Positions 30,041-40,594 of a DNA stretch of 64,000 bases are shown piece after piece (the stretch's first letter is position 1; each line of letters starts with the position of its first letter). The position numbers and the translations under genes were made by a program. This stretch comes from Escherichia phage vB_EcoM_LMP25: sequence record MK482688.1. One strand, given 5' to 3'. The notes beneath the pieces are model-generated. The model did not search any database. It worked only from the letters and a program-made list of their open reading frames with translations, and was not told the DNA's origin.

Positions 30041-38065
<8,025 letters not shown>

Positions 38066-38066
<1 letters not shown>

Positions 38067-38305
38067 TACATTTTTCCTGCTCTTCTAAGTTCGTTGTAAG
38101 CAATTTCCTCTTTATACGACCTCTGAATCTCAAGAAATTGTCTCAATGATAATAAATCAGAGAATGTCATAGCAAAGAGTTGGTCAAGTGTTTCTTTACA
38201 CCCTTCCATACCATAAATAGCAAGCACAAATTTCATCTCGTCTGCTTCTTCATAGGTTGCCTCTACAGCAGCATCAGTCAGTGGTGTCTGTAGAGTGTTA
38301 CCCAT
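38066..38305 (-). CDS. Tail assembly chaperone, downstream ORF in the -1 frame (candidate frameshift extension)
   Basis: 79-aa ORF in the -1 frame relative to 38308..38706, open upstream of its ATG; typical G/GT arrangement before a tape measure gene. Confidence 0.4.
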
Positions 38306-38307
38306 GT

Positions 38308-38706
38308 TTACTGAGAAGTTAGGCTTTTGAAAATGCTTGCTTCGAAAAAACTTCCGAAGTTTGCCTCCAGCGCAAATGCTAAGTAATCAATAAATTCACC
38401 ATAGTTTGCTTGGAAGTATGTATCAATATTAAGTGGGAAGTCATCAACAGTTGCCCCTTGAAATAACAGGGTAGCCATTTCTTCAAGGTTAATTTCTTCA
38501 ATTCTGTCAAAACAAGCTTCAACAAGTTCTTTAAATGGAACCATTGGAGCTTCTTTCTTACCCTTGTCAGTCAGACTTGACAGCATCTGTGCAAAAGTTG
38601 GAACAACAATTTTACCCAACTTCATAGACATCTTAATACCATCTCTTGCCCCAAGCAGAACGATATTTACTTTCTTACCATTAATTACTCTAGATTCTGT
38701 TTTCAT
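38308..38706 (-). CDS. Tail assembly chaperone
   Basis: 132 aa; position between tail tube and tape measure; acidic. Confidence 0.45.
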   Translation of the reverse strand: MKTESRVINGKKVNIVLLGARDGIKMSMKLGKIVVPTFAQMLSSLTDKGKKEAPMVPFKELVEACFDRIEEINLEEMATLLFQGATVDDFPLNIDTYFQANYGEFIDYLAFALEANFGSFFEASIFKSLTSQ

Positions 38707-38779
38707 TGTGATTCCTTAATACTTTTAAAAGAAACAAAAAAGGGGAAGACCTTTTAAAGTCTCCCCCTTATAGGATTTA

Positions 38780-39226
38780 TTAAACACTTGACGCTGGAAT
38801 TGTAGAAGTGTAGTCTAGCTTCTCACAACCAAAAATCCAAGTTTTAGAGTTCTGGTCACGACCAAGTTCAATCTGTGGTAATTCCTGCAACCAAGCATTA
38901 ATACCAGTTGCCAGAACAGAGCCTGATGGGTCGTAGATTACGAAGTTAGAAGAGATATCTTCTTCAAGTTCCATATTGTCTTGTTTAGCTTGAATTGCAG
39001 AAAGCATCTGGTTAGAGAGAGAAGTCTGCATTAACTCAATCTCAATAGTACCTGTCTTGTCTGCATTTCTTGTCAGAGCAACCTGACCACCTGCACCAAC
39101 AACTGGTGTCACAAGTGGTGATGTTCTCTGTAGACGCAAGAATGAGTCTGGAGCAAAGCCTTCAATAGCAATGCCGTTCCAGCTACATACAACGTCTTTA
39201 GGGGAATATTGCTGATACATAGCCAT
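38780..39226 (-). CDS. Tail tube protein
   Basis: 148 aa; directly downstream of the sheath gene. Confidence 0.5.
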   Translation of the reverse strand: MAMYQQYSPKDVVCSWNGIAIEGFAPDSFLRLQRTSPLVTPVVGAGGQVALTRNADKTGTIEIELMQTSLSNQMLSAIQAKQDNMELEEDISSNFVIYDPSGSVLATGINAWLQELPQIELGRDQNSKTWIFGCEKLDYTSTIPASSV

Positions 39227-39241
39227 TCCAATTTACCTCTA

Positions 39242-40594
39242 TTATTCGTAAGCCACTGTACCTTTCAAGTCAACATCCAAGATAGCCCCTGCTAAGATAC
39301 CTGCGAAGGTAACGTCTTTCAGGATACGTGCTTTCTTGTCTGCCAAAGCAACTTGAGAGGCTTTAGGAACATTAACTGTGTAAGATGACAGGAAGTTTCT
39401 GTTGACTGCTCTTTGCAGAGAGGTTTCAATGACTTGACGAATACGGGTAATACCAGTATCATCATAAGTAATCTTACCACCCTTCTGGTTAATTAGCAAG
39501 TCTCTCAGAGAAGTTTTCAGGTCTGATTCTAACCAGTCAACACCACGGACGATATCAATCCATTCCCCACCAGAAGTAATCCCTCTACGAACCACTGGAA
39601 CACCACCATCAAGGTCAATAAAGTTACAGTGACGTACATCTAAAGCAGACTTCTGAATACTTGTCAGAGGTCTCTGATTAGATGGTTGTAGAGAAGCTGC
39701 TACGCCAGTTAGCTGAGCATTACCCCAAGCAATTGAGCCTGCATCATATGGAGCACCATAAGCAATGTATGCCATCTCTGGATAATCTTCTGCTGCTGCG
39801 TGATGCCACAAGCAAACTGTACGAGTGTACATATTCTTAGCAAGCTGTGCTGGAACATCATTTGCACTGGCTAATTCTGTACCTTGTAGGGCTGTTACAT
39901 CGGAGTTAGCCGTAAAGAAGATTTTCTTACGAGCCTGAATCTCAGAAGCCATTGCTAAGACAAACTGTTGCGTTCTGTCTTCTGCTGCAATGAAATACCA
40001 GTCAGTAGAGTAAGCTTCGATAGCTGCCAGAGCAGTTGCTGCTGTATCGGCAGTTGTACTTGCAATATATACAGTCTGTGCTGTGGTTGTTACTTTCACA
40101 AAGTCATTATCACCAGCTTTGGTAATAATCATTGTGGCAGAGCCATTGCTACCAGTTACGTTCACAGAAACCTTATCTTTGATTGTTGGGTCAGCTTCAA
40201 TCTGTGTTTTAAACTGTTGCAACACGTTTTCAGCAGTGTCTTCAGCTTGCGCTGTATACTGATATGGTTGAGAAATTCCACCGCCAGCAGCTACAGTAAT
40301 AGAGTAGTCTGTACTTTCAGCAACGGCATTAGGAATTGATACAGTGTACTGCATAGCACGTCTACCAATATAAAGCTGAGTTACTTTAGGAGTCTGACTC
40401 CAAAGTTGTTTAGCAGCCTTATATGCAGCAGTATTCTCATCGAAATCTTCAGCAACTTCAGTTAAGGAAGTGTAACCACGGACTCTTTCTTCAAAATTAT
40501 CTGTTGAAGCTAAGAATAGTGGCAAACCAAAACCTTCTCTTGTAGTTCCTGCGGTGTTCAATGTAATATCTACATTAACAATTGGATTCCACAT
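39242..40594 (-). CDS. Tail sheath protein
   Basis: 450 aa; size and position upstream of tube and chaperones in a myovirus tail module. Confidence 0.55.
   Translation of the reverse strand: MWNPIVNVDITLNTAGTTREGFGLPLFLASTDNFEERVRGYTSLTEVAEDFDENTAAYKAAKQLWSQTPKVTQLYIGRRAMQYTVSIPNAVAESTDYSITVAAGGGISQPYQYTAQAEDTAENVLQQFKTQIEADPTIKDKVSVNVTGSNGSATMIITKAGDNDFVKVTTTAQTVYIASTTADTAATALAAIEAYSTDWYFIAAEDRTQQFVLAMASEIQARKKIFFTANSDVTALQGTELASANDVPAQLAKNMYTRTVCLWHHAAAEDYPEMAYIAYGAPYDAGSIAWGNAQLTGVAASLQPSNQRPLTSIQKSALDVRHCNFIDLDGGVPVVRRGITSGGEWIDIVRGVDWLESDLKTSLRDLLINQKGGKITYDDTGITRIRQVIETSLQRAVNRNFLSSYTVNVPKASQVALADKKARILKDVTFAGILAGAILDVDLKGTVAYE

What the first reader, a model, noticed from the sequence alone, without database searches (positions are those of the whole stretch)
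38290..38330. Candidate programmed -1 frameshift between the two tail-chaperone ORFs
ORF 38066..38305 is in the -1 frame relative to 38308..38706, and its frame is open for at least 8 codons upstream of its ATG (…QKPNFSVNMG…), overlapping the end of the upstream ORF (…IFKSLTSQ*). The pair sits immediately before the tape measure gene, as in the conserved G/GT arrangement. The sequence TTTTCAAAAGC around the junction is not a canonical X-XXY-YYZ heptamer, so the slip site is uncertain.
Basis: partly seen in the sequence, partly recalled or inferred. Interest (0 to 1): 0.45.

Follow-up and report, generated by a model that had tools for sequence, protein, structure and literature searches.

The report
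Felix O1-type tail chaperone frameshift site

Summary
The stated observation is correct. ORF 38066-38305 lies in the -1 frame of ORF 38308-38706 (minus strand), directly upstream of the tape measure gene. That frame is open for 27 codons before the ATG, not just 8.

It is a canonical, in-register heptamer, agT TTT TTC, at 38350..38344, just outside the flagged range. Slipping there gives a 213-aa fusion (121 + 92 aa).

The window is a Felixounavirus, 100% identical over the queried 1.4 kb to Escherichia phage vB_EcoM_LMP34. RefSeq already annotates the joined chaperone CDS in Salmonella phage Mushroom (same genus), Moogle and Michonne. Michonne's note, "ribosomal slippage", falls inside the same heptamer. 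Genome announcements for Moogle and Mijalis also mention the frameshift.

- All 58 relatives examined keep TTTTTT[C/T] in register with a -1 frame that continues to the tape measure start where the tape measure gene directly follows. They include rV5-like phages and contigs of 57-65% GC.
- Many of them have no start codon for the downstream part. One close relative has ATA in place of the ATG.
- No downstream RNA structure is present or conserved.

Verdict: real, mechanistically ordinary and already known. Direct experimental proof was not found.

The parts
38308..38706 (-). Tail assembly chaperone, zero-frame product (G-like), 132 aa
   Evidence: ORF list. Pfam Phage_TAC_15 E=1.7e-19, 71 bits against a cut-off of 22. 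PHROG 1613 'tail assembly chaperone' E=2.9e-48.
38344..38350 (-). Slippery heptamer T_TTT_TTC in register (agT TTT TTC), encoding the family-invariant Phe120-Phe121
   Evidence: Sequence. In-register check. Invariant G-TTTTTT in the DNA alignment of 10 lineages. F120 and F121 invariant. Present in 46/46 IMG/VR loci and 12/12 phage-database loci. Michonne's 'ribosomal slippage' coordinate falls inside the homologous heptamer.
38066..38344 (-). -1 frame extension (T-like part): 92 codons, RSKHFQKPNFSVNMGNTLQ...RRAGKM, plus the stop. The fusion CDS is join(38706..38344, 38344..38066), 213 aa
   Evidence: Translation. The 641-nt joined CDS in Salmonella phage Mushroom gives the same 213 aa. The -1 peptide directly after FF is conserved across genera (R-x-K-x-F-Q-K-P).
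38066..38305 (-). ORF2 as an ORF finder calls it (79 aa from ATG 38305). Best read as the C-terminal part of the fusion rather than an independent gene
   Evidence: PHROG 4963 'tail assembly chaperone' E=2.8e-55. No Shine-Dalgarno sequence in the 18 nt before the ATG. The ATG is ATA in L017 and absent in many lineages.
38364..38368 (-). GGAGG, Shine-Dalgarno-like, 13 nt upstream of the heptamer. A possible dnaX-type upstream stimulator, unproven
   Evidence: GGAGG or GAGG sits at the same spacing in 15 of 21 distinct lineages. It is encoded by the conserved Leu-Glu-Ala. GAG is the minor Glu codon here, 56 GAG against 172 GAA. It is absent in Kolesnikvirus, Hafnia, Yersinia and phiTE.
38329..38332 (-). 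At most a minor secondary slip site
   Evidence: Sequence. In E. coli, U_UU.C is the second most slip-prone tetramer, but tetramers are barely shifty without a stimulator (PMC4066793). It is not conserved outside Ounavirinae.
35838..38066 (-). Tail tape measure protein, 742 aa. Its ATG overlaps the stop of the -1 frame (TAATG)
   Evidence: PHROG 4036 E=0, Pfam TMP_3 E=2e-17. Junction sequence aaaatgTAAtggca.
38780..39226 (-). Tail tube protein (context)
   Evidence: Pfam KPP10_Orf10 E=3.2e-07, PHROG 280. It lies directly downstream of the sheath gene 39242-40594 (PHROG 205 tail sheath, E=3.7e-123).
38740..38769 (-). Intrinsic-terminator-like hairpin (13 bp, then TTTTGTTTCT) between the tube gene and the chaperone gene (context)
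   Evidence: A terminator is annotated at the same place in Michonne and listed for other Felix O1-like records.

Best explanation
**Identity of the locus.** The window is a Felix O1-like myophage (Felixounavirus). Its tail assembly chaperone gene is decoded in two ways.

**Zero-frame product.** Most ribosomes read ORF1 to its stop at 38308 and make a 132-aa G-like chaperone of the Phage_TAC_15 family.

**Frameshift product.** A minority of ribosomes slip back one base while the two tRNA-Phe sit on UUU-UUC of the heptamer U_UUU_UUC (38350..38344). Both tRNAs re-pair to UUU-UUU. Translation then continues with CGA (Arg) in the -1 frame for 92 codons and stops at the TAA that overlaps the tape measure ATG (TAATG). 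The result is a 213-aa GT-like fusion, ...EANFGSFF|RSKHFQKPNFSVNMGNTLQ....

**Role, by analogy with lambda gpG/gpGT and P2 gpE/gpE+E'.** The shared N-terminal part coats the tape measure protein. The rare C-terminal extension recruits the tube protein to start tail tube polymerisation. Neither product ends up in the virion.

**Shown here:**
- the anatomy of the two frames;
- the canonical in-register heptamer;
- its conservation across the whole family;
- the dispensability of ORF2's own start codon;
- the absence of a downstream structure.

**Inferred:** that the slip actually happens, its efficiency (probably a few percent, from the heptamer alone or helped by the GGAGG 13 nt upstream), and the division of labour between the two domains.
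For: **1. Anatomy.** ORF2 is in the -1 frame and that frame is open from 38386. T_TTT_TTC is in register at 38350..38344. It is the only in-register heptamer in the window with a long -1 continuation, 92 codons against at most 32 for the other 60.

**2. Family.** ORF1 matches Pfam Phage_TAC_15 (E=1.7e-19). Both ORFs hit PHROG 'tail assembly chaperone' families. The gene order is sheath, tube, chaperone pair, tape measure.

**3. Existing annotation.**
- A joined CDS of 641 nt (213 aa) is annotated in Salmonella phage Mushroom, a Felixounavirus whose ORF1 is 98.5% identical.
- Joined CDSs are also annotated in Moogle and Michonne. Michonne's note 'ribosomal slippage (47149)' maps to position 1010, inside the heptamer at 1007-1013.
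- The genome announcements PMC4319497 and PMC5543628 state the frameshift.

**4. Conservation.**
- The 46 IMG/VR loci were retrieved with peptide patterns that lie upstream of the heptamer, so codon choice at the site did not bias the retrieval. All 46 carry in-register TTTTTTC. This includes contigs of 57-65% GC whose ORF1 is 26-31% identical.
- So do Kolesnikvirus, Suspvirus, Mooglevirus, Hafnia and Yersinia phages and the Vequintavirinae FV3 and phiTE. Alteromonas PT11-V22 has TTTTTTT.
- The codon before Phe-Phe always ends in T (AGT, TGT or GAT). The first Phe codon is always TTT.

**5. DNA island.** Between Felixounavirus and Kolesnikvirus the ORF1 proteins are 41% identical. Yet blastn finds only window 38361..38321 conserved, at 92.7%.

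**6. ORF2's own start is dispensable.** It is ATA in L017, whose ORF1 protein is identical. Many lineages have no start codon near the N-terminus of the T part. In phiEa21-4 the T part is not annotated as a gene at all, although the -1 frame is open and conserved.

**7. Heptamer competence.** In E. coli, U_UU.U_UU.C shifts at more than 0.1% without a stimulator. It belongs to the H_HH.U_UU.Y class, among the most efficient motifs, and is selected against in genes (PMC4066793). P2 E/E+E' uses the near-identical TTTTTTG without any hairpin (PMC3091744).
Against: - No experimental detection of the fusion protein for any Felix O1-like phage was found.
- The exact 213-aa sequence is not in the 15-billion-protein collection.
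- There is no downstream stimulatory structure. The 60 nt after the heptamer fold at -3.4 kcal/mol with z = +1.17. The Ounavirinae consensus fold is -1.5 kcal/mol with no covariation. Efficiency may therefore be low.
- Phe-Phe is invariant at the protein level, so part of the nucleotide conservation is explained by the protein alone.
- 20 of 21 close Felixounavirus loci keep the ATG 2 nt after ORF1's stop (TAAacATG). Some independent re-initiation in this clade is therefore not excluded.
- Sequence alone cannot separate ribosomal slippage from transcriptional slippage on the T6 run.
Confidence: 0.86

Rival explanations
1. Two independent genes. ORF2 is made only from its own ATG at 38305, for instance by termination-reinitiation at TAAacATG, and no fusion is produced.
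For: An ATG lies 2 nt after ORF1's stop and is kept in 20 of 21 close Felixounavirus loci. Most database records, including the record 100% identical to the queried segment (LMP34), annotate two separate ORFs.
Against: - The 18 nt before the ATG contain no Shine-Dalgarno sequence.
- The ATG is ATA in L017.
- No start codon exists near the N-terminus of the T part in Kolesnikvirus, Hafnia, FV3, phiTE, Alteromonas and the high-GC contigs.
- The -1 frame is open, and conserved as protein, for 13 codons upstream of the ATG (R-x-K-x-F-Q-K-P).
- This reading does not explain the invariant in-register T_TTT_TTY.
Confidence: 0.03
2. Both routes operate. The frameshift gives GT, and low-level reinitiation at ATG 38305 gives a free 79-aa T fragment in the E. 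coli/Salmonella clade.
For: Same as above. An ATG occurs within codons 14-19 of the T part in Felixounavirus, Suspvirus and Mooglevirus.
Against: There is no ribosome-binding site. The ATG is lost in L017 with no other change, and lineages outside this clade lack it. A free T domain has no known role in lambda (PMC5009743).
Confidence: 0.07
3. Transcriptional slippage. RNA polymerase adds one extra U while copying the T6 run, and the edited mRNA is read normally into the -1 frame, giving the same fusion protein.
For: The site is a homopolymeric T6 run, and T7 in Alteromonas PT11-V22. A weak hairpin precedes the run. Runs of 7 identical A or U are avoided in E. coli genes, possibly because of such slippage (PMC4066793).
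Against: From my own knowledge, efficient bacterial RNA polymerase slippage usually needs runs of about 8-9 or more. The run is never longer than 6-7 in the 58 relatives examined, although lengthening it would be easy. The closest characterised analogues, lambda G/GT and P2 E/E+E', are described as translational.
Confidence: 0.04

Closest known systems
Annotated tail assembly chaperone frameshift of Felix O1-like phages (Salmonella phage Mushroom NC_041923; Citrobacter phages Moogle NC_027293, Michonne NC_028247, Mijalis)
   Same: Same genes, same order and same heptamer TTTTTTC. The fusion length is the same as Mushroom's, 213 aa. ORF1 is 98.5% identical to Mushroom's and the -1 frame reads identically. 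Michonne's slippage coordinate lies inside the homologous heptamer.
   Different: Nothing of substance. The record 100% identical to the queried segment (LMP34) and most other Felixounavirus records simply do not annotate the join.
Bacteriophage P2 gpE / gpE+E' (-1 frameshift at TTTTTTG, contractile-tail phage)
   Same: A contractile-tail phage with a chaperone pair between the tube and tape measure genes. The slip is -1 on a T6 run and there is no downstream hairpin (PMC3091744).
   Different: The last base is C rather than G. Pfam detects no relationship: only Phage_TAC_15 is hit. P2's products are shorter, 91 and 142 aa against 132 and 213 aa.
Bacteriophage lambda gpG / gpGT (-1 frameshift at G_GGA_AAG)
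   Same: The genes have the same position and logic. [quoted passage not shown] The products are not in the virion (PMC5009743).
   Different: Lambda is a siphovirus with a different heptamer and an unrelated sequence family. The roughly 30:1 ratio has been measured for lambda only.
E. coli dnaX -1 frameshift (A_AAA_AAG with upstream Shine-Dalgarno-like stimulator and downstream hairpin)
   Same: A GGAGG lies 13 nt upstream of the heptamer. That is within the 6-17 nt window in which Shine-Dalgarno-like stimulators are sought (PMC4066793).
   Different: There is no downstream hairpin. The GGAGG is absent in several lineages and is partly explained by the conserved Leu-Glu-Ala codons. Its role is untested.

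Membership tests
G/GT-type tail assembly chaperone pair with programmed -1 frameshift (Xu, Hendrix & Duda 2004) | Two ORFs located between the major tail/tube gene and the tape measure gene | tested here: met
   The order is tube 38780-39226, ORF1 38308-38706, ORF2 38066-38305, tape measure 35838-38066.
G/GT-type tail assembly chaperone pair with programmed -1 frameshift (Xu, Hendrix & Duda 2004) | The downstream ORF is in the -1 frame and its open frame overlaps the 3' end of the upstream ORF | tested here: met
   The -1 frame is open from 38386, overlapping 26 codons of ORF1.
G/GT-type tail assembly chaperone pair with programmed -1 frameshift (Xu, Hendrix & Duda 2004) | A slippery X_XXY_YYZ heptamer in the zero-frame register inside the overlap | tested here: met
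   T_TTT_TTC at 38350..38344. The motif is competent in E. coli (PMC4066793).
G/GT-type tail assembly chaperone pair with programmed -1 frameshift (Xu, Hendrix & Duda 2004) | The slip site and the two-frame arrangement are conserved among relatives | tested here: met
   All 58 related loci keep them, across Ounavirinae, Vequintavirinae, Myoalterovirus and uncultured contigs of 57-65% GC.
G/GT-type tail assembly chaperone pair with programmed -1 frameshift (Xu, Hendrix & Duda 2004) | The fusion protein is actually made, at a low fixed ratio, and is required for tail assembly | not testable with these tools
   No proteomic or genetic data were found for Felix O1-like phages.
Pfam PF21822 Phage_TAC_15 | Score above the curated gathering threshold over most of the profile | tested here: met
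   71 bits against a cut-off of 22. Residues 9-124 match profile positions 1-124 of 127.
P2 gpE / gpE+E' family (sequence homology) | Detectable sequence similarity to P2 gpE | tested here: not met
   The Pfam scan at E<=0.1 returns only Phage_TAC_15 and one sub-threshold chance hit. No gpE family is hit. The resemblance is in mechanism and position only.
dnaX-type frameshift signal with upstream Shine-Dalgarno stimulator | A conserved Shine-Dalgarno-like element 6-17 nt upstream of the heptamer | tested here: inconclusive
   GGAGG lies 13 nt upstream in the window. GGAGG or GAGG is present in 15 of 21 lineages and absent in 6. It is confounded by the conserved Leu-Glu-Ala.
Frameshift signal with downstream hairpin or pseudoknot stimulator | A stable, conserved structure 5-9 nt downstream of the heptamer | tested here: not met
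   -3.4 kcal/mol with z = +1.17 for the 60 nt downstream. The consensus fold is -1.5 kcal/mol with no compensatory pairs.

The most novel reading that the evidence does not exclude
The signal may be an ancient, family-wide recoding cassette rather than a slip site that each lineage chose for itself. The same T_TTT_TTY heptamer is locked onto the invariant Phe-Phe at the end of the Phage_TAC_15 domain. It usually has GAGG/GGAGG exactly 13 nt upstream. It has been kept unchanged in every member examined, from 39% to 65% GC. If the upstream element, or the nascent ...NF-x-SFF peptide, tunes the shift, this would be a compact phage model of stimulator-poor frameshifting. It would also be a reliable annotation rule for the whole family, where most records still list two 'hypothetical proteins'.
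Probability: 0.25. Interest if true: 0.3.

Novelty: already known. Interest (0 to 1): 0.12.

Why it matters
The value is mostly practical. The frameshift is a textbook feature of tailed-phage tail assembly, and it is already annotated in RefSeq for a phage of the same genus.

Most Felixounavirus records still list two separate ORFs or 'hypothetical proteins'. That includes the record identical to the queried segment of this window. The exact join, join(38706..38344, 38344..38066), can be transferred directly to those records.

The one mildly interesting point is that a single heptamer is invariant across the whole Phage_TAC_15 family, even in high-GC genomes. That makes the family an easy target for automatic frameshift annotation.

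Tried and rejected
It is not an X_XXY_YYZ heptamer. It contains only an in-register U_UUC tetramer (38332..38329). It is not conserved outside Ounavirinae.

2. **A downstream stimulatory hairpin or pseudoknot: none found.**
   - The 60 nt after the heptamer are less structured than shuffles.
   - The alignment fold has no covariation.
   - The strong hairpin CUCUACAG...CUGUAGAG (about 38290-38253) starts more than 50 nt downstream, too far to act.
   - GC-rich hairpins in high-GC relatives are no better than their shuffles.

3. **The 8-bp hairpin CUUCGGAA/UUUCGAAG that contains the heptamer itself.** Its upstream arm differs in Kolesnikvirus, Hafnia and Yersinia phages, and the consensus fold of the Ounavirinae alignment does not recover it. 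By inference it cannot exist while the ribosome occupies the site. I treat it as a by-product of the Phe-Gly-Ser-Phe-Phe-Glu codons.

4. **The search for related loci with the 9-sequence cross-subfamily alignment failed**, because no stretch was conserved enough. An Ounavirinae-only alignment worked.

5. **Exact look-up of the 213-aa fusion in the protein collection:** not present.

6. **PDB and NCBIfam searches with the fusion:** nothing.

7. **Literature search for experimental proof in Felix O1-like phages:** it found only genome announcements. The Bas63 gene-essentiality paper says nothing about the chaperone.

Full report
**What is in the sequence**

All genes of this region are on the minus strand. 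Their order is:
- sheath, 39242-40594 (PHROG 205, E=3.7e-123);
- tube, 38780-39226;
- ORF1, 38308-38706 (132 aa);
- ORF2, 38066-38305 (79 aa);
- tape measure protein, 35838-38066 (742 aa; PHROG 4036 E=0, Pfam TMP_3).

ORF1 is a Pfam Phage_TAC_15 tail assembly chaperone (E=1.7e-19, 71 bits against a cut-off of 22). Both ORFs hit PHROG families labelled tail assembly chaperone.

ORF2 is in the -1 frame of ORF1. That frame is open from 38386, 27 codons before ORF2's ATG, and reads LLSICAGGKLRKFFRSKHFQKPNFSVNMGNTLQ....

**The slip site**

Eleven bases upstream, outside the flagged range, the zero frame reads GGA AGT TTT TTC GAA. This contains T_TTT_TTC at 38350..38344 in the exact X_XXY_YYZ register.

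A tandem -1 slip of the two tRNA-Phe gives ...EANFGSFF followed by RSKHFQKPNFSVNMGNTLQ...RRAGKM. The fusion is 213 aa (121 + 92). Its stop overlaps the tape measure start (TAATG).

The 61 large ORFs of the window (16,506 codons) hold 61 in-register heptamers. This one is followed by 92 open -1 codons, the next best by 32, and it lies 11 codons before its gene's stop. TTTTTTC is also depleted in the window, with 10 copies against 26.9 +/- 5.3 expected.

**Identity of the window and existing annotation**

The segment 37900-39300 is 100% identical to Escherichia phage vB_EcoM_LMP34 and LMP33. It is 95-99% identical to about 200 Felix O1-like phages of the genus Felixounavirus.

Most records annotate two separate ORFs. 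Phage momo is an example. Three RefSeq records carry a joined chaperone CDS:
- Salmonella phage Mushroom is a Felixounavirus whose ORF1 is 98.5% identical. Its joined CDS spans 641 nt, which is exactly 213 aa with one base read twice. Its -1 frame reads identically to the window's.
- Citrobacter phage Moogle carries a joined CDS.
That coordinate maps to position 1010 of locus L005, inside the homologous heptamer at 1007-1013.

[quoted passage not shown] The feature is therefore already known by annotation.

**Comparative test**

*Ounavirinae.* I examined Mooglevirus, Suspvirus, Kolesnikvirus, two Hafnia-type phages and Yersinia phage P778. In all of them TTTTTTC is in register, and the -1 frame runs from the heptamer to the tape measure start.

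*Beyond Ounavirinae.* The heptamer and a long open -1 frame are also found in the Vequintavirinae FV3 and phiTE and in Alteromonas phage PT11-V22 (which has TTTTTTT). Their ORF1 is only 26-32% identical to the window's. In Alteromonas PT11-V22 the -1 frame again ends at the tape measure start. In FV3 and phiTE it ends before a short gap or an intervening ORF.

*IMG/VR viral contigs.* A scan retrieved 46 loci through peptide patterns that lie upstream of the heptamer ([AG]NYG[EF][FLM][ILV]D and [AI]FA[LV]E[ATK]NF). Codon choice at the site therefore did not bias the retrieval. All 46 carry in-register TTTTTTC. They include contigs of 57-65% GC, where a T6 run is highly atypical.

*Codon choice.* In every lineage the codon before Phe-Phe ends in T (AGT, TGT or GAT), and the first Phe codon is TTT. 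In the window's structural genes AGT is 17% of Ser codons and TTT 54% of Phe codons. As a rough inference, about a dozen independent lineages all keeping xxT TTT TTY is far beyond what protein conservation of Phe-Phe alone predicts.

*DNA island.* Felixounavirus and Kolesnikvirus ORF1 proteins are 41% identical. Yet blastn detects only window 38361..38321 as conserved DNA, at 92.7%. That is the expected footprint of a recoding site followed by a stretch read in two frames.

**Is ORF2 an independent gene?**

The comparative evidence argues against it.
- The 18 nt before its ATG (cctaacttctcagtaaac) contain no Shine-Dalgarno sequence.
- In IMG/VR locus L017, whose ORF1 protein is identical, the codon is ATA.
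- Kolesnikvirus, Hafnia, FV3, phiTE, Alteromonas and all the high-GC contigs have no ATG, GTG or TTG near the N-terminus of the conserved T part.
- In phiEa21-4 the T part is not annotated at all, although it is open and conserved.
- The -1 peptide between the heptamer and the ATG (R-S/G-K-H-F-Q-K-P) is conserved across genera.

A minor contribution of reinitiation at TAAacATG in the E. coli/Salmonella clade cannot be excluded, because 20 of 21 close relatives keep the ATG.

**Stimulators**

- The 60 nt downstream of the heptamer fold at only -3.4 kcal/mol, weaker than shuffles (z = +1.17).
- The Ounavirinae consensus fold is -1.5 kcal/mol with no compensatory pair.
- The hairpin that contains the heptamer, and the more distant CUCUACAG/CUGUAGAG hairpin, are respectively not conserved and too far away.
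- A GGAGG lies 13 nt upstream of the heptamer (38368..38364). GGAGG or GAGG occurs at this spacing in 15 of 21 lineages. GAG is the minor Glu codon here, 56 against 172 GAA. However, the element encodes the conserved Leu-Glu-Ala and is missing in six lineages, so its role is undecided.

The lack of a downstream structure matches P2 E/E+E', which slips at TTTTTTG without a hairpin (PMC3091744). In E. coli, U_UU.U_UU.C shifts at more than 0.1% without any stimulator. It belongs to the H_HH.U_UU.Y class of most efficient motifs and is under-represented in genes (PMC4066793).

**Mechanism and function**

Best explanation, confidence 0.86: programmed -1 ribosomal frameshifting at U_UUU_UUC yields a minor 213-aa GT-like fusion beside the major 132-aa G-like chaperone.

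By analogy with lambda, the shared part binds the tape measure protein and the extension recruits the tail tube subunit. Both are absent from virions, and in lambda the ratio is about 30:1 (PMC5009743). These functional steps are inferred, not shown here.

Rivals:
- independent initiation only (0.03);
- both routes (0.07);
- transcriptional slippage on the T6 run (0.04).

**Comparison with what is known, and verdict**

This is a member of the Phage_TAC_15 family and of the G/GT-type frameshifted chaperone class. All sequence-level defining features were tested and met. Production and requirement of the fusion could not be tested.

It is not homologous to P2 gpE by Pfam, although it works like it. 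No solved structure or NCBIfam model covers it.

The feature is real and correctly interpreted in kind. It is ordinary and already annotated in the same genus. The added value here is the exact slip site and join coordinates, and the observation that the same heptamer is invariant across the whole family.

Noticed in passing
window 38740-38769 (- strand): A strong intrinsic-terminator-like hairpin (13 bp, 6 G-C pairs, then TTTTGTTTCT) lies between the tube gene and the chaperone gene. It is annotated as a terminator at the same place in Michonne. It would lower transcription of the chaperone and tape measure genes relative to the sheath and tube genes.
   Followed up: partly
window 38340-38359 (- strand): An 8-bp hairpin, CUUCGGAA-GUUU-UUUCGAAG, has the slippery heptamer in its loop and 3' arm. 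Its upstream arm differs in Kolesnikvirus, Hafnia and Yersinia phages. It is probably a by-product of the Phe-Gly-Ser-Phe-Phe-Glu codons.
   Followed up: partly
window 38364-38368 (- strand); L013, L034-L059: GGAGG or GAGG sits exactly 13 nt upstream of the heptamer in 15 of 21 lineages, including the high-GC contigs. It uses the minor Glu codon GAG in this phage. It may be a dnaX-like upstream stimulator, or simply the conserved Leu-Glu-Ala.
   Followed up: partly
L050-L059 (IMG/VR contigs, 57-65% GC): Distant uncultured relatives keep AGT/GAT TTT TTC despite their high GC content. Their zero frame continues 32-48 codons past the heptamer as a low-complexity Ser/Thr/Ala/Pro-rich tail. GC-rich hairpins begin within 6 nt (0-5 nt) after the heptamer, for example L051 at -32 kcal/mol, but they are no better than shuffles.
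   Followed up: partly
window, whole: TTTTTTC is strongly under-represented on both strands: 10 copies against 26.9 +/- 5.3 expected. This is consistent with avoidance of slippery runs in a densely coding phage genome.
   Followed up: no
window 38064-38070 (- strand): The stop of the -1 frame and the tape measure ATG overlap (aaaATGTAATGgca, TAATG). An AGGA lies about 8 nt upstream of the ATG. The junction is kept in Felixounavirus, Suspvirus, Mooglevirus and Yersinia P778.
   Followed up: no
L002 (Erwinia phage phiEa21-4) 1270-1505; L008 (Salmonella phage SE5) 1389-1502: In Kolesnikvirus records the T part is unannotated (phiEa21-4), or only a 37-aa fragment from an internal ATG is called (SE5). 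These records miss the frameshifted product altogether.
   Followed up: yes
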